From sequence record NC_100371.1: 64,000 bases of DNA, one strand, 5' to 3'. The position numbers and the translations under genes were made by a program. This DNA comes from a phage. The notes under the pieces are model-generated. The model had not been told where the DNA came from, ran no database searches, and saw only the letters and a program-made list of their open reading frames with translations. Shown here in pieces: positions 14,429 to 19,060 of the stretch. Within the stretch, counting starts at the first letter, position 1; each line of letters begins with the position of its first letter.

Positions 14429-14527
14429 GGTGCTAGGTGATGGAATCGAACCATCTATGTATTCAACGACTACCTCGTCTATTTTCAGGATTAAAAATCC
14501 TCGCCCTTGCCAAAGGGCTTACCTAGC
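14429..14527 (-). tRNA. atypical tRNA-like gene (99 nt; anticodon loop reads UUU; possibly degenerate or insert-containing)
   Basis: perfect acceptor GCTAGGT/ACCTAGC, D-arm GCCC-TTTGGCAA-GGGC, canonical T-arm GATGG-TTCGATT-CCATC, but about 30 nt between anticodon arm and T-arm. Confidence 0.4.
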
Positions 14528-14830: not shown

Positions 14831-14918
14831 TGGTGGTGAGTGATGGAGTCGAACCACCCGAATCGCAATGATAACAGATTTACAGTCTGCCCCGCTACCC
14901 CTACGGAATTAACTCACC
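14831..14918 (-). tRNA. tRNA-Tyr (anticodon GUA), type II
   Basis: acceptor GGTGAGT/ACTCACC, anticodon arm GCAGA-CTGTAAA-TCTGT, long variable arm, T-loop TTCGACT, CCA encoded. Confidence 0.7.
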
Positions 14919-15048: not shown

Positions 15049-15123
15049 TGGCACCCCGTACTGGACTCGAACCAGTGTCAACGGCTTAGAAGGCCGCTGC
15101 TTTATCCACTAAGCTAACAGGGC
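15049..15123 (-). tRNA. tRNA-Arg (anticodon UCU)
   Basis: acceptor GCCCTGT/ACGGGGT, anticodon arm GCGGC-CTTCTAA-GCCGT, T-arm ACTGG-TTCGAGT-CCAGT, CCA encoded. Confidence 0.7.
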
Positions 15124-15219
15124 ACTGGGTGGCTTTCTTTTACACCTGAGCCGCCAGAAAAGGTGGGAGACCATGTTTATAATATTACACTGTTAGGCAA
15201 AGTTTGTCAAGAAAATATT

Positions 15220-15558
15220 TTAACTATTGCCAACAGGCTGTATTTCTGTGGTAAATGGCATAAAAGGTGCTGGTTTTTCAGCCTCTTCCACTACCACCTC
15301 TTCCTCTTCACCAAACATCTCATCATATTCTTCCTGCATTCTGTCTGCCTTATCAAGAACATACTCTGCAATGCTTTGACGAATATTTTGTTTGGTTTTC
15401 GGGTCCAACATCAGCTCTCTTAAAACTTTGTGAGCTTCTGGAACCATCGCTATAAAAGATTCCTTCATATCAAGAATGTTCTTCTCTAGCTGAATGGCGT
15501 TGGACTCCTCTTTCAGAGGTCTGCCTCTACGGCGACGCTTTTTAGTTGTATCCGCCAT
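15220..15558 (-). CDS. hypothetical protein with basic AT-hook-like N-terminus
   Basis: Likely start at internal ATG 15558 with GGAGG RBS (MADTTKKRRRRGRPLKEES...); acidic C-terminus; the 12-bp palindrome TATCACGTGATA sits just upstream. Confidence 0.45.
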   Translation of the reverse strand: MADTTKKRRRRGRPLKEESNAIQLEKNILDMKESFIAMVPEAHKVLRELMLDPKTKQNIRQSIAEYVLDKADRMQEEYDEMFGEEEEVVVEEAEKPAPFMPFTTEIQPVGNS

Positions 15559-15903
15559 GTTTCCTCCATTATCACGTGATAGGTGGATTTTATCACGGCA
15601 AATACTGATTGTCAAGTTCGCCGCAGGGTGGTATTCCCTGCGACTTGCCCAGCGTCCTGGACCAGCAAGACCCAACAAGTGGGTTACCAGATACCCATTA
15701 CCGCGCTCTGGCTCGACCTTATTACAGGTTGGCTGGGGTCACATCGTCATGTGCTGGCTGCCCCTACCATTTTAAGTGTGGTGCACTATCAAGCCCTCTA
15801 AGGGGAACTCAGCCTTCTCCGAACCCTGTTTCAAAGCATCCGGAGATAAAGCCATCAAACTCATCTTTAAATTGGATATTCATCATGATACACGAAAACA
15901 ACC

Positions 15904-16146
15904 TCATTGTAAAGCACAAATAAATAAAACATACTTAATTTGTTTGTTATCAGGCTCAGGGTAGAAGTAGAAGATCTTGCTATCACCGATCTGAACACCA
16001 CCATCCCAACAGCATAACCCATAACCAGTATTCATACAAGCTAAGTCGTTGGCAAAATCTATTGCATCATCTAGTGCACGAAATTCACCTTCATCTTCTA
16101 AATAATCCTCATTCATGGAACGGAAAACGAGCTTAACCTTAAACAT
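15904..16146 (-). CDS. hypothetical protein
   Basis: 80-aa ORF, minus-strand small-gene block. Confidence 0.35.
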   Translation of the reverse strand: MFKVKLVFRSMNEDYLEDEGEFRALDDAIDFANDLACMNTGYGLCCWDGGVQIGDSKIFYFYPEPDNKQIKYVLFICALQ

Positions 16147-16222
16147 AGCATTACCTGTAGACCTCGTAAGTTAAAATTGTATCACATCATATTGCAGATC
16201 TTATCAGGTAACATTATTTTTG

Positions 16223-16411
16223 TCAACAGATTCCGGCCTTATCCCTCCTGTCTGCGTATTCTTTAATCGCAACCTCACCTGCATTGGTAACCAGATCTTC
16301 AAAGTAATTCTCAAGCTCCTCGTCAATGTCCGGTGACCAGCTCTTTTTCCTGTCAGTGTGAATTGCAGACTTGTTGAACTTATTACAATTCTTTGCTACC
16401 GGATTGTTCAT
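16223..16411 (-). CDS. hypothetical protein
   Basis: 62-aa ORF, start adjacent to stop of upstream gene. Confidence 0.3.
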   Translation of the reverse strand: MNNPVAKNCNKFNKSAIHTDRKKSWSPDIDEELENYFEDLVTNAGEVAIKEYADRRDKAGIC

Positions 16412-16421
16412 TAAGCTCTCC

Positions 16422-17000
16422 TCAACGTTCGTAGTAAATCTTATTCAACATTACCTCATCGTTTGCAGAAAGGATATCAAGATATGCATCACCAAATCTG
16501 CCTGCAACAACCTCTGCATGATACATCACTTCGTTAACATCGTCAAGAGTGATAACCGGATGACCATATCTTTCTGAATATTGTCTCAGTGTGCGATGTA
16601 ACGAGTCGTCATCATATGCAGACTTTTTAATATCACAAACACGACGAATGGCCTTGATGTCGAAAAAACCTGTGCGATACCACCCAAGAAAAAAGTTCCG
16701 TGTAGTGTCAACATCTACATCAATACCATTAAGAACCTTATCTACAAGATAGCTGTCATCCTTTGGACTAGCGTCCTTAGTGCGAATGTAGTTGCCATCT
16801 TTTCCAGGTGATAGCTCCTTCTCATCACCAACCTGCATGCCATCATTTGGCGGTGTTAGCCACTTATCAGGATGCTTACGATCACGAGCGTTAGAATGAT
16901 TACGCTGGAAACCTGGCTTCCACTTGAAAGTTTTCTCCATCTGTTCTTCATTCTGATAACGTTTTGCAATCTTTTCACTGGCATCTTTGCGTGAACTCAT
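16422..17000 (-). CDS. hypothetical protein
   Basis: 192-aa ORF, first gene downstream of the iteron/AT-rich region. Confidence 0.45.
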   Translation of the reverse strand: MSSRKDASEKIAKRYQNEEQMEKTFKWKPGFQRNHSNARDRKHPDKWLTPPNDGMQVGDEKELSPGKDGNYIRTKDASPKDDSYLVDKVLNGIDVDVDTTRNFFLGWYRTGFFDIKAIRRVCDIKKSAYDDDSLHRTLRQYSERYGHPVITLDDVNEVMYHAEVVAGRFGDAYLDILSANDEVMLNKIYYER

Positions 17001-17504
17001 AGCAGACTCCTCTTCAAGTTATAGAAAAACTCACTGTATCGCTTTGTAACGAGCTTTTCTATCAAACTGGTGCGATTGCCTTACTTGGTATAGTTTATAT
17101 AGCTGTGGAGCGATTTAGGGGCCTTCTTGTCAGTTTCCACACATAAACTTTATCCGAACTCGCGCGGGAGGCTCTCAACCGACTCCTTCCGGCGCTGGCA
17201 AGCTTTCGTCGGTGGTCCACATTAGTGCTCGGCCTTTGGCCTGCGCTATCGCTTCGCTCCCACACATGTTAACAGTCCTGCATGTATGCACTTCTGTTAT
17301 TGTGTGCACTATGGAGGCCCGGCATCTCGCCCCTCGTAGGCGAGTGCCAATGAAGGGCCGACACTACCCATAATAAGTAATAAATTTAAAACATGGTACT
17401 TAGGATCTAGTATATTCTACATAAGTTAAGTATATGTACTTTAGTACCATAAGTACTAGATCTTTTATTTTTTATTATTTAGTTATTTTAGTTATATTCT
17501 TTAT

Positions 17505-17587
17505 GTGTCCGTATCACGGACAGTTAGTGTCCGTATTACGGGCAGATGTGTCCGCGTGACGGACAGTAGTGTCCGTATCACGGACAG
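17505..17587. repeat. array of four 19-bp direct repeats, each an inverted-repeat palindrome (TGTCCGT-N3-ACGGACA), candidate operator/iteron array
   Basis: GTGTCCGTATCACGGACAG at 17505 and 17569; variants at 17528 and 17548; spacing 20-23 bp; AT-rich tract 17400-17500 adjacent. Confidence 0.7.
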
Positions 17588-17661
17588 TTACTAACCTCTG
17601 TTCCAGAGTGAACATAAAACATACAAATCCTTATAGTACAGATGTTTAAGTTTTTACTGGT

Positions 17662-18012
17662 CTAACCAGTTGTTGACATTCGAATAACTTCTTCTGGTGG
17701 CAAAACTTTGGAAAATGTGCATCTTTTACCTCTCCCTTGTGTGGATATTTCAACCACTCCTGCACATTCTAAAGTTTTAACGCACGCTGCTGCTTTTGTT
17801 TTCTTTATCCCAACATCTGCTGCAATTTTCCTGGTGCTGGGTGTGAAGCGTGAATTTTCTCCAAGCTTATACCAGTTGTGCAGGTAGCAGTATACGATCT
17901 TGTCATATAAGTCAAGAACAATAACCTCCCCAGTTGTGCCATTCAAAACTTTTGACATAGACAGTATTTCAAGGGGGACTTTAAGATATAGCAGCTTATC
18001 CCCATCTTTCAT
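17662..18012 (-). CDS. putative helix-turn-helix DNA-binding protein
   Basis: 116 aa; HTH-like segment TRKIAADVGIKKTKAAACVKTLECAGVV; adjacent to the palindromic repeat array. Confidence 0.45.
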   Translation of the reverse strand: MKDGDKLLYLKVPLEILSMSKVLNGTTGEVIVLDLYDKIVYCYLHNWYKLGENSRFTPSTRKIAADVGIKKTKAAACVKTLECAGVVEISTQGRGKRCTFSKVLPPEEVIRMSTTG

Positions 18013-18059
18013 ATCTCCTGATTCTCCTTGTGTGGCAATTTTCTTTAAAATAGCAGGGA

Positions 18060-18614
18060 TTACTCCCCGCTGTCAATAGCAAGACTCATTGCAATACGGT
18101 ATGCCTCTTCTAATGGTAAGAGTCTCCCCCACACATCCCAACCGACATCAAACTGCCTGCCAAACAACTGCTGTGTGGTTCCGTGAGCATGACCGAACAG
18201 TTGGACTGATCCGTGAGGCTTTCTGTTCCACTTTGCAAACTGGTAATGGCTCATACAGATCAAATTCTTGTTGTGGCGAAGCTCGTAATAATCTACAACC
18301 TCATGACCGAACTCTTTCATAATTCTGACAGTCGTCCTTGTGTCATGGTTACCACGAACAAGAATAATATGTCCGTTCAACATATTTAGAACATCTGGAA
18401 GCAATTTGTTGATATTCTTATCATTAGTGCACGCAATATCCCCCAAGTGAAACACAGTGTCTGCAGGTGACACAACAGAGTTCCACTTGGTGATGATTCC
18501 CGCATTCATACTGTCAAGATTGTGATCATACTGAGATCTGTGTTTTTGACATGAGTCGAACTCCATTACCCGCTGGTGGAGAAAGTGTGTGTCGCTTGTT
18601 ACAAAGTATTTCAT
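18060..18614 (-). CDS. calcineurin-like metallophosphoesterase (candidate polynucleotide 3'-phosphatase)
   Basis: Motifs DTHF, GDIACTND, GNHD, GHAH; start at internal ATG 18614 with GAGGA RBS (MKYFVTSDTHF...). Confidence 0.6.
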   Translation of the reverse strand: MKYFVTSDTHFLHQRVMEFDSCQKHRSQYDHNLDSMNAGIITKWNSVVSPADTVFHLGDIACTNDKNINKLLPDVLNMLNGHIILVRGNHDTRTTVRIMKEFGHEVVDYYELRHNKNLICMSHYQFAKWNRKPHGSVQLFGHAHGTTQQLFGRQFDVGWDVWGRLLPLEEAYRIAMSLAIDSGE

Positions 18615-19032: not shown

Positions 19033-19060
19033 AGTAACTCTCCGTTTTAATTTTAATGAT

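What the first reader, a model, noticed from the sequence alone, without database searches (positions are those of the whole stretch)
17400..18012. Four-copy array of 17-bp palindromes beside an AT-rich tract and an HTH protein gene: candidate operator array or replication origin
Four direct repeats of a near-perfect palindrome (TGTCCGT-ATC-ACGGACA; two exact, two variants) lie at 17505-17587 with 20-23 bp spacing, immediately after an AT-rich run (17400-17500). The small HTH protein gene 17662-18012 is adjacent. Spacing close to two helical turns puts sites on one DNA face, as for cooperative binding. Iterons next to an AT-rich tract are also the classic layout of an origin.
Basis: seen in the sequence. 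Interest (0 to 1): 0.6.

Follow-up and report, generated by a model that had tools for sequence, protein, structure and literature searches.

The report
Candidate replication origin of rV5-like phages
Four palindromic repeats beside the most AT-rich spot of this rV5-like E. coli phage genome, next to a small protein folded like the DNA-binding domain of known replication initiators, most likely mark the phage's so far unmapped replication origin.

Summary
Four copies of TGTCCG-N5-CGGACA sit at 17506-17586, spaced 22/21/21 bp, found nowhere else in the ~136-kb genome. They abut the lowest-GC 100 bp of the whole genome. They lie 76 bp downstream of a 116-aa gene on the minus strand.

The window is a Vequintavirus (rV5-like myovirus), whose origin was sought but not found in the 2013 genome paper.

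The 116-aa protein is not a generic regulator. Its only significant PDB sequence match, and its best structural match, is 4RO3, the iteron-binding N-terminal domain of the Vibrio PLE RepA initiator. The next matches are S. aureus RepA_N initiators.

The same half-sites, in arrays of 2-7 copies at about 22-bp spacing, occur in 21 unrelated viral contigs. There they nearly always lie inside a gene with a winged-helix N-terminus, several matching O-like initiator families, usually followed by a GC dip. This is the lambda-O/RepA_N layout.

Across 14 Vequintavirus genomes the half-sites stay fixed while centres, linkers and copy number (2-4) vary.

Best reading: an iteron-type origin bound by a stand-alone initiator DNA-binding domain. 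Nothing is shown experimentally, and an operator role is not excluded.

Side finding: an adjacent GC-rich structured element is shared with a 13.5-kb phage-like E. coli plasmid.

The parts
17506..17522 (.). Iteron 1 (TGTCCG-TATCA-CGGACA), next to the AT tract
   Evidence: Its half-sites are unchanged wherever this copy is present among the 14 Vequintavirus genomes examined; it is deleted in FFH2.
17528..17544 (.). Iteron 2 (TGTCCG-TATTA-CGGGCA). The right half-site variant A->G is conserved and not compensated.
17549..17565 (.). Iteron 3 (TGTCCG-CGTGA-CGGACA). The centre differs and varies between genomes (CGTGG, CGTAG).
17570..17586 (.). Iteron 4 (identical to iteron 1)
17371..17504 (.). AT-rich tract, the candidate DNA-unwinding element. 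It contains an imperfect inverted repeat (about 17404-17462) with two GATC sites and short A/T direct repeats.
   Evidence: 18% GC at 17405-17504, the lowest in the genome. Only 12% of columns vary among 9 genomes, no more than in the flanking genes. No sigma70-like promoter was found in it. An equivalent GC dip follows the array in most of the other contigs.
17662..18012 (-). Gene for the 116-aa stand-alone RepA_N-type (DUF6945/HTH_36) winged-helix DNA-binding domain, the presumed iteron-binding protein
   Evidence: Pfam DUF6945 28.8 bits (cut-off 28) and HTH_36 24.8 bits. PHROG 12838 'replication initiation protein'. PDB 4RO3 by sequence, E 2e-5. AF2 model pLDDT 83.7. Foldseek top 7 hits are all RepA_N initiator N-terminal domains.
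18047..18076 (-). Sigma70-like promoter (TTGACA-18-TATTTT with TG) upstream of the 116-aa gene. Transcripts from it would read through the array and the AT tract.
   Evidence: The rV5 GenBank record annotates promoter P76 at the equivalent place. No terminator-like site lies between the gene and the array.
17609..17637 (+). Conserved sigma70-like promoter (TGAACA-17-TATAGT; TGGACA/TATAAT in divergent lineages). It fires away from the array, antisense to the 116-aa gene.
   Evidence: Function is inferred only.
17095..17370 (-). GC-rich (52-61%) ORF-free structured element on the far side of the AT tract. It may be an accessory part of the module (ncRNA, leader, or single-strand priming signal). 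Strand assignment is tentative.
   Evidence: Two blocks are about 86% identical to unannotated DNA of a 13.5-kb E. coli phage-like plasmid, with 5 compensatory base-pair changes. No Rfam family matches. It occurs only in Vequintavirus and that plasmid. The plasmid has the same order: GC element, AT tract, palindromic repeats.

Best explanation
The locus is an iteron-type replication origin of rV5-like phages (Vequintavirus).

Proposed mechanism:
1. Dimers of the 116-aa protein bind the four TGTCCG-N5-CGGACA palindromes. The protein is a stand-alone version of the N-terminal DNA-binding domain of RepA_N/PLE-RepA-type initiators.
2. The 21-22-bp spacing places all four dimers on one face of the DNA, so they can form a bent nucleoprotein complex.
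3. This complex, probably helped by transcription reading through from the upstream promoter, opens the adjacent AT tract. That tract is the lowest-GC 100 bp of the genome.
4. The phage's own helicase-primase is loaded there.

Because the protein lacks the C-terminal recruiting domain of full-length initiators, another factor must supply that step, or the short tail of the protein must.

What is shown: the sequence anatomy, uniqueness, conservation pattern, fold and homology of the protein, and the recurrence of the same iterons inside initiator-like genes elsewhere. What is inferred: binding, melting and origin firing.
For: 1. Protein identity. The only significant PDB sequence hit is 4RO3 (E 2e-5, residues 12-90). 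4RO3 is the N-terminal domain of V. cholerae PLE RepA, which binds semi-palindromic iterons at the PLE origin by EMSA and is needed for PLE replication (PMC7145576). The AF2 model (pLDDT 83.7) aligns over 107-114 columns with 4RO3 (E 4e-6) and with S. aureus RepA_N initiators 4PQL, 4PT7, 5KBJ and 4PTA. Generic HTH regulators score lower and align over shorter stretches. PHROG hits are all 'replication initiation' families.

2. Recurrence. 21 unrelated IMG/VR contigs (48-70% GC) carry arrays of 2-7 copies of the same half-sites at 20-25-bp spacing. In 19 or more of them the array lies inside, or at the 3' end of, an ORF with a winged-helix N-terminus. 5 of 9 representative array ORFs match PHROGs 'replication initiation O-like' or 'replication initiation protein'. 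In most contigs GC dips in the 40-160 bp right after the array. This is the layout of ori-lambda, with iterons plus an AT tract in the middle of gene O (PMC7466680), and, from my own knowledge, of RepA_N plasmids.

3. Anatomy. The site is unique in the 136-kb genome. It abuts the lowest-GC 100 bp of the genome. It lies 1.45 kb from the circular GC-skew minimum and divergent transcription point at 19043.

4. Selection. In 14 Vequintavirus genomes, with the protein down to 84% identity, the half-sites are unchanged except for one recurrent uncompensated transition. Centres and linkers vary. Copy number is 2-4 through whole-unit indels. For lambda, two iterons plus the AT tract are the minimal unwinding unit.

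5. A 13.5-kb circular E. coli plasmid has the same module order, GC-rich element then AT tract then palindromic repeats at 23-bp spacing. It also has a 288-aa initiator-like protein whose N-terminus aligns with the 116-aa protein (E 8e-6).
Against: - There is no experimental binding, melting or marker-frequency data for any Vequintavirus.
- The protein is only the DNA-binding domain. No helicase- or primase-recruiting domain is present, and no partner was identified. The downstream 192-aa ORF has no informative homology.
- The Pfam RepA_N and Phage_rep_O models do not hit. DUF6945 is just at its cut-off and HTH_36 just below.
- Similarity to the N-termini of the array-bearing ORFs is weak (hhalign probability 77%, 35 columns). 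A shared half-site is therefore not explained by close homology.
- The IMG/VR scan was conditioned on the half-site sequence.
- The gene-plus-array module is confined to one genus. Sister genera (PVP-SE1, phAPEC8-like and phi92-like phages) lack it, so it is not a conserved essential feature of the wider group.
- The GC-skew minimum coincides with a switch of transcription direction, as the rV5 paper already noted, so it adds little.
Confidence: 0.58

Rival explanations
1. Operator array. The 116-aa protein is a transcription factor. Four dimers bound at the array would do one of three things: control the adjacent plus-strand promoter (17609-17637), which makes an RNA antisense to the protein's own gene; act as a roadblock to read-through from the early leftward operon into the downstream tRNA, lysis and late genes; or control a promoter in the AT tract.
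For: A sigma70-like promoter lies about 20 bp from iteron 4. It is conserved, and its hexamers move closer to consensus in divergent lineages. The array sits between early-type genes and the long leftward unit. Most GenBank records call the protein a 'putative transcriptional regulator'. Initiators of this class often also autoregulate (my own knowledge).
Against: The closest sequence and fold relatives are replication initiators and an origin-directed nuclease, not regulators. No palindrome overlaps a promoter hexamer, and no promoter was found in the AT tract. Elsewhere the same arrays lie inside coding sequences of initiator-like genes, which is not where operators sit. A single genomic site is compatible with this reading but not indicative. 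This rival is not exclusive of the origin model.
Confidence: 0.2
2. Conflict or relic module. The gene plus array is a remnant of, or a weapon against, another replicon. It could be a truncated initiator captured from a satellite or plasmid, with the DNA-binding domain acting as a competitor or handcuffing factor. It would not be the phage's working origin.
For: The same domain is used by a satellite initiator (PLE RepA) and by a phage anti-satellite nuclease, ICP1 Odn, in a phage-satellite arms race (PMC8263062). The distant sequence relatives of the 116-aa protein include fusions of this domain to GIY-YIG or T5orf172 nuclease domains. The module is restricted to one genus. A 13.5-kb E. coli plasmid with Vequintavirus-like structural genes carries a full-length homologue and the homologous GC-rich element.
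Against: The palindromes are in the phage's own genome, in cis with the gene, and are conserved in all 118 GenBank Vequintavirus records that carry the gene. Their half-sites are under visible constraint. The plasmid's repeats have a different sequence, CGGWAATATTTACCG, so the phage protein is not obviously aimed at them. No nuclease domain is present.
Confidence: 0.12
3. Packaging (pac) recognition region. The repeats, with or without the neighbouring GC-rich element, would be bound by a small-terminase-like HTH protein to start headful packaging.
For: Vequintaviruses package by a headful mechanism with partial permutation (PMC13211470; rV5 paper). The large terminase gene is about 4 kb away on the same strand. 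The GC-rich element is shared with a satellite-like plasmid, and satellites typically copy helper packaging signals (my own knowledge). One GenBank record and two metagenomic contigs end at the array.
Against: The protein's fold matches initiator N-terminal domains, not small terminases. The contig ends are more simply explained by copy-number heterogeneity of a tandem repeat. No terminus mapping places pac here.
Confidence: 0.05
4. RNA hairpins. Four stem-loops in the 3' untranslated region of the 116-aa gene's mRNA would act as stabilisers, processing sites or terminators.
For: Each unit can form a 6-7-bp stem. As single-stranded DNA the region folds far better than shuffled versions (z = -6.6). 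Loops vary while stems are conserved.
Against: No U-tract follows any stem, and no terminator was called. The arm variants seen (A->G in the right arm, in iteron 2 and again independently in one lineage) are not compensated. Stem sequence, not merely pairing, is conserved. In other phages the same palindromes are translated as part of ORFs.
Confidence: 0.03

Closest known systems
ori-lambda with the O protein (lambdoid phages)
   Same: Four (six in Stx phages) imperfect palindromic iterons in tandem, directly flanked on one side by an AT-rich unwinding tract. They are located just 3' of the sequence encoding the initiator's DNA-binding N-terminal domain. Two iterons plus the AT tract suffice for unwinding (PMC7466680). 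Roughly 22-bp spacing, and the need for transcription through or near the origin, are from my own knowledge.
   Different: In lambda the origin lies inside a full-length O gene whose C-terminal domain recruits P-DnaB. Here the gene stops 76 bp before the iterons and no C-terminal domain exists. The Pfam Phage_rep_O model does not hit. The iteron sequence is different.
Vibrio cholerae PLE RepA and the PLE origin (RepA_N family, phage satellite)
   Same: This is the closest relative of the 116-aa protein by sequence (4RO3, E 2e-5) and by fold (E 4e-6, TM 0.65). PLE RepA binds semi-palindromic iterons in a non-coding region, and it relies on phage-encoded replication machinery rather than acting alone (PMC7145576).
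   Different: PLE RepA is a full-length protein with a C-terminal domain. It belongs to a satellite, not a phage. Its iterons are about 30 bp, in three copies, and differ in sequence.
Staphylococcal RepA_N plasmid initiators (pSK41, pTZ2162)
   Same: The N-terminal winged-helix dimer fold matches (4PQL, 4PT7, 5KBJ, 4PTA). The iterons are direct repeats with inverted sub-repeats around an A/T-rich centre. That the origin lies within or next to the rep gene is from my own knowledge.
   Different: The Pfam RepA_N model gives no hit here. There is no C-terminal domain. The host range and replicon type differ.
ICP1 Odn (Gp88), the origin-directed nuclease
   Same: It uses the same DNA-binding domain family (BFVD hit F1D1B0, E 1.2e-4). 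It shows that lytic phages carry this domain and use it to recognise origin iterons (PMC8263062).
   Different: Odn fuses the domain to a T5orf172 nuclease and targets a satellite's origin. The rV5-type protein has no nuclease domain, and its presumed sites are in its own genome.
RSF1010-type oriV (iterons, AT-rich tract, then structured single-strand initiation signals). This comparison is from my own knowledge and was not tested.
   Same: The order of elements resembles that found here: iterons, AT tract, then a GC-rich element whose helices are kept by compensatory changes.
   Different: There is no sequence similarity. Whether the GC-rich element acts as DNA or RNA, and whether it belongs to the origin at all, is unknown.

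Membership tests
Iteron-type replication origin (lambda / iteron-plasmid kind) | Two or more tandem initiator-binding repeats with helical-phase spacing | tested here: met
   Four copies at 22/21/21 bp. Related genomes have 2-4 copies.
Iteron-type replication origin (lambda / iteron-plasmid kind) | An AT-rich DNA-unwinding element directly adjacent to the repeats | tested here: met
   17405-17504 is 18% GC, the lowest 100-bp window of the 136-kb genome. It is well conserved.
Iteron-type replication origin (lambda / iteron-plasmid kind) | A cognate initiator gene in cis, encompassing or adjacent to the repeats | tested here: met
   A gene for a RepA_N-type N-terminal domain ends 76 bp from the array in all genomes examined.
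Iteron-type replication origin (lambda / iteron-plasmid kind) | The initiator carries a domain that recruits the helicase or primosome | tested here: not met
   The protein is 116 aa and consists of the DNA-binding domain plus a tail of about 15 residues. No partner was identified.
Iteron-type replication origin (lambda / iteron-plasmid kind) | Replication actually starts there (marker frequency, origin-dependent amplification, 2D gels) | not testable with these tools
   No such data exist for Vequintavirus in the paper library. The GC-skew minimum 1.45 kb away is confounded by transcription direction.
RepA_N / DUF6945 initiator N-terminal domain family | N-terminal winged-helix fold shared with PLE RepA and staphylococcal RepA | tested here: met
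   The Foldseek top 7 PDB hits are 4RO3, 4PQL, 4PT7 and 5KBJ, covering 107-114 of 116 residues. The phmmer match to 4RO3 has E 2e-5.
RepA_N / DUF6945 initiator N-terminal domain family | Passes the curated Pfam model | tested here: inconclusive
   DUF6945 scores 28.8 bits against a cut-off of 28. HTH_36 scores 24.8 against 25. The RepA_N model itself is not among the hits at E <= 0.1.
RepA_N / DUF6945 initiator N-terminal domain family | Binds semi-palindromic iterons as a dimer | not testable with these tools
   Suitable palindromes are present. Binding was not assayed.
Lambda O protein family (Phage_rep_O) | Sequence membership of the O N-terminal domain family | tested here: not met
   There is no Pfam Phage_rep_O hit. 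There are only weak PHROG hits to 'replication initiation' families (phrog_8102, 428 and 270; E 1.8e-5 to 1e-2).
Repressor-operator array | Binding sites overlap or closely flank a promoter that they control | tested here: inconclusive
   A conserved sigma70-like promoter has its -35 hexamer about 20 bp from iteron 4, but no site overlaps a hexamer. No promoter was found in the AT tract.
Intrinsic terminators | A GC-rich stem followed by a U-tract | tested here: not met
   No terminator-like site was called at the array, and no T-run follows any stem.

The most novel reading that the evidence does not exclude
The origin module of rV5-like phages may have three parts: iterons, an unwinding tract, and a previously undescribed GC-rich structured RNA or single-stranded-DNA element. 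It would be run by an initiator reduced to its DNA-binding domain. The structured element, and the initiator family, would be shared with a 13.5-kb plasmid-like mini-relative in E. coli that carries Vequintavirus-type capsid, tail and baseplate genes. That plasmid could be a new kind of phage satellite that taps the helper phage's replication or packaging machinery through this shared cis element.
Probability: 0.2. Interest if true: 0.75.

Novelty: new member of a known kind. Interest (0 to 1): 0.5.

Why it matters
rV5-like phages are among the most often isolated E. coli phages and are used in typing sets and therapy cocktails. Even so, their replication origin is unknown. The 2013 genome paper looked for it by skew analysis and found only transcription switches.

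A concrete, testable origin candidate with a named binding protein would help in several ways:
- It would allow origin mapping.
- It would support construction of phage-dependent replicons and engineering vectors.
- It would open study of how a large virulent phage starts replication with an initiator that has only a DNA-binding domain.

The finding also links this phage genus to the RepA_N/PLE/Odn domain family, which is central to phage-satellite conflicts. It points to a possible satellite-like plasmid related to these phages.

Tried and rejected
- Rfam at gathering thresholds over the whole window, and at E <= 5 over 15100-17700: only tRNAs and one chance-level hit (rli43, 24.6 bits against a gathering score of 100).
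- Single-sequence AF2 gave an unusable model (pLDDT 34). It was rescued with an 11-sequence alignment.
- Protein homologue searches returned almost only near-identical Vequintavirus proteins. There were 5 hits in 5.8e9 proteins and 9 in 1.8e9 representatives. Co-variation between the protein and its half-site could therefore not be tested.
The tandem-pair pattern was the informative one.
- The downstream 192-aa ORF was tested as the 'missing C-terminal domain'. It has no Pfam hit, no PDB hit, and no similarity to any ORF in the array-bearing contigs.
- Syntenic loci in PVP-SE1, a phAPEC8-like phage and a phi92-like phage have a different gene order and lack the module.
- Two Aeromonas phages with weak homologues (E 0.01 and 8) have no array downstream of the gene, only AT-rich repeats about 400 bp upstream.
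- GC skew as origin evidence: the minimum at 19043 coincides with divergent transcription, so I give it little weight.
- Terminator, RNA-hairpin and pac readings were considered and ranked low (see the rival explanations).
Full report
**What the window is.** The region is 99.6% identical to Escherichia phage ECP2303 and 91-99% identical to about 118 GenBank Vequintavirus (rV5-like) myovirus records. The genes around the finding are all on the minus strand. In order they are a polynucleotide kinase-like ATPase, a metallophosphoesterase, the 116-aa HTH gene (17662-18012), a 661-bp intergenic region, a 192-aa ORF of unknown function (16422-17000), small ORFs, a tRNA cluster, spanins, the large terminase and the structural genes. 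Transcription diverges at about 19100.

**Check of the observation.** Four palindromes lie at 17506-17522, 17528-17544, 17549-17565 and 17570-17586. Spacing is 22/21/21 bp. Copies 1 and 4 are identical, copy 2 has CGGGCA in the right arm, and copy 3 has a different centre.
- The pattern with up to 3 mismatches occurs only at these four sites in the 64-kb window, against 0.06 hits expected.
- It occurs nowhere else in the whole genome, which I reconstructed from the window plus ECP2303.
- The AT tract is real, and 17405-17504 (18% GC) is the lowest-GC 100-bp window of the entire genome.
- The conserved core is TGTCCG-N5-CGGACA. The half-site centres are 11 bp apart, as expected for a dimeric winged-helix protein, and 21-22-bp spacing puts all sites on one DNA face.
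- The gene is on the minus strand, so the array lies 76 bp downstream of its stop codon.

**Conservation within the genus.** I compared nine GenBank genomes and five metagenomic contigs, whose 116-aa protein goes down to 84% identity.
- The array is always 76 nt after the stop codon.
- The half-sites never change except for a T/C (A/G) transition at position 3. This transition is uncompensated. It is fixed in copy 2 and arose again in copy 4 of one lineage.
- The central 5 nt and the linkers vary.
- Copy number is 4, 3 or 2 through deletions of whole units: FFH2 and A135 have 3, YN3 has 2.
- The 20 bp flanking the array on the gene side are hypervariable. The AT tract is as conserved as the coding sequence, with 12% variable columns against 15-16%.

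This pattern fits sequence-specific protein recognition of the arms. It argues against RNA hairpins, as does the absence of a U-tract or any terminator call.

**The protein.**
- Pfam gives DUF6945 at its cut-off and HTH_36 just below it. PHROGs place the protein in 'replication initiation protein' families.
- It is nearly an orphan: 9 hits in 1.8 billion representatives. The distant hits are the same domain fused to GIY-YIG or T5orf172 nucleases, or multi-winged-helix proteins.
- The only significant sequence match in the PDB is 4RO3 (E 2e-5). According to PMC7145576, 4RO3 is the N-terminal domain of the Vibrio cholerae PLE RepA. That protein is a RepA_N-family initiator which binds semi-palindromic iterons in the PLE origin and is required for PLE replication.
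- An AF2 model built on an 11-sequence alignment is confident (pLDDT 83.7). Its seven best PDB matches are all RepA_N-type initiator N-terminal domains: 4RO3, and 4PQL, 4PT7 and 5KBJ from staphylococcal plasmids, including a Rep-DNA complex. They align over nearly the whole protein.
- Among viral models the best matches are short DUF6945 proteins of other lytic phages and ICP1 Gp88. Gp88 is Odn, a nuclease that uses this domain to find and cut the PLE origin iterons (PMC8263062).

Both experimentally studied relatives therefore recognise origin iterons.

**The same iterons elsewhere.** A scan of IMG/VR for two adjacent TGTCCG-N5-CGGRCA units found 21 contigs, none of them Vequintavirus, with 48-70% GC. 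They carry arrays of 2-7 copies at 20-25-bp spacing. The central pentamer differs between contig groups.
- In nearly all of the contigs the array lies inside, or at the 3' end of, an ORF with an N-terminal winged helix. The palindromes are translated as repeated peptides. L132 could not be assigned with confidence.
- 5 of 9 representative array ORFs hit PHROGs 'replication initiation O-like' or 'replication initiation protein'.
- In most contigs GC dips in the 40-160 bp just 3' of the array.

This is the arrangement of ori-lambda, with iterons plus an AT tract in the middle of gene O (PMC7466680). In one contig group the winged-helix gene is short (133 aa), ends just after the iterons, and is followed by a separate ORF. 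That split layout approaches the one seen here. Two caveats apply. The scan was conditioned on the half-site sequence. The N-termini of these ORFs are only distantly similar to the 116-aa protein (hhalign probability 77%).

**Transcription context.**
- A sigma70-like promoter lies upstream of the 116-aa gene (18076-18047). It is annotated as P76 in the rV5 record. No terminator lies before the array, so transcripts should read through the array and the AT tract.
- A second sigma70-like promoter on the plus strand (17609-17637) is conserved and becomes TGGACA-17-TATAAT in divergent lineages. It points away from the array, antisense to the 116-aa gene.
- No promoter was detected in the AT tract.

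These features fit transcriptional activation and antisense control as known for other replicons (my own knowledge), but they equally keep an operator reading alive.

**The neighbouring GC-rich element.** Beyond the AT tract lies a 276-bp ORF-free stretch of 52-61% GC (17095-17370) in a 43% GC genome.
- Two blocks of it are about 86% identical to unannotated DNA in small circular E. coli plasmids: NZ_CP020521.1 (13.7 kb) and NZ_CP043822.1, a trimer of a 13.5-kb unit.
- Ten of the 16 differences in the two aligned blocks fall in five compensatory base pairs, for example ACCGAC/GTCGGT against GCTGCC/GGCAGC.
- No Rfam family matches.
- In the phage database the element occurs only in Vequintavirus.
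- The plasmid shows the same order: GC element, AT tract with repeats, then palindromes (CGGWAATATTTACCG) at 23-bp spacing.
- The plasmid also has a 288-aa protein that hits the same initiator PHROGs. Its N-terminus aligns with the 116-aa protein (E 8e-6).
- It also encodes baseplate (50% identity), tail and capsid proteins related to Vequintavirus.

A plasmid-sized replicon with one such region supports reading the module as an origin. It also suggests that the GC element is an accessory cis element. Its role is open: ncRNA, leader, priming signal or packaging signal.

**Verdict.**
- That the 116-aa protein binds the palindromes is likely (about 0.8, inferred).
- That the locus is the phage's replication origin, or one of its origins, is the best-supported reading (about 0.58).
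- An operator or autoregulatory role is second (about 0.2), and the two are not exclusive.
- A relic or conflict role, a pac role and an RNA-hairpin role rank lower.

Points against the origin reading:
- No recruiting domain is present in the protein.
- The module is restricted to one genus.
- The Pfam scores are marginal.
- No experimental data exist.

**Novelty.** The array is annotated only as an unnamed 'repeat_region' in a few GenBank records. The rV5 genome paper states that the origin could not be defined. Searches of the paper library found no description of a Vequintavirus origin. I rate it a new member of a known kind, an iteron origin with a RepA_N-type binding domain. Its unusual feature is an initiator reduced to the DNA-binding domain.

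Noticed in passing
window 17095-17370; L143 4001-4302; L145 about 1240-1540: A GC-rich ORF-free element beside the AT tract is shared, in two blocks of about 86% identity, with a 13.5-kb E. coli plasmid. It differs from the plasmid copy by five compensatory base-pair changes. No Rfam family matches. In the phage database it occurs only in Vequintavirus. It is a candidate new structured RNA or single-stranded-DNA element.
   Followed up: partly
L143 (NZ_CP020521.1) and L145 (NZ_CP043822.1, trimer with unit starts at 1864/15395/28949): A circular 13.5-kb E. coli 'plasmid' encodes a baseplate protein (50% identity), a 152-aa protein (44%), a tape measure and a major capsid protein related to Vequintavirus. 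It also has its own RepA/O-like initiator and palindromic repeats at 23-bp spacing. It looks like a miniature relative, or a possible satellite, of rV5-like phages.
   Followed up: partly
window 17609-17637 (+): A conserved sigma70-like promoter next to the array would produce an RNA antisense to the 116-aa gene. Its hexamers are closer to consensus in the most divergent lineages.
   Followed up: partly
window 15560-15870: A second GC-rich (51-56%) stretch without a credible ORF lies upstream of a small minus-strand gene. Its folding z-score is -2.2. It has no Rfam hit and no similarity to the first element or to the plasmid. It may be the 'non-coding' box of the rV5 paper.
   Followed up: partly
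window 14429-14527 and 14834-14918 (-): ARAGORN calls a 99-nt tRNA with a four-base anticodon at 14429-14527 (annotated 'tRNA-OTHER' in phage naam; Rfam tRNA 37.5 bits). Rfam finds a further tRNA at 14834-14918 that ARAGORN missed; it is annotated tRNA-Tyr in relatives.
   Followed up: no
MG065672.1 start; L151 and L152 ends: One GenBank record starts exactly at the end of the array, and two metagenomic contigs stop inside it. The likely cause is copy-number heterogeneity of the repeat breaking the assemblies.
   Followed up: no
L153 (Salmonella phage PVP-SE1) 2194-2239 and 2300-2338: In the divergent intergenic region of a sister genus, two palindromes (ATTCCC-N4-GGGAAT) lie 24 bp apart, next to a GATC-rich AT tract. 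This could be an analogous site with a different specificity.
   Followed up: no
L015 (IMGVR_UViG_3300020050_011007): Six single copies of TGTCCGG-NNN-CCGGACA are dispersed over 13 kb rather than arrayed. The same motif may serve as a dispersed operator or centromere-like site in some phages.
   Followed up: no
L157 1890-2120; L156 2080-2230 (Aeromonas Plateaulakevirus): Weak homologues of the 116-aa protein in Aeromonas phages sit about 400 bp downstream of a very AT-rich region. In phiA019 (L157) that region carries repeats with 23-bp spacing. There are no repeats after the gene.
   Followed up: partly
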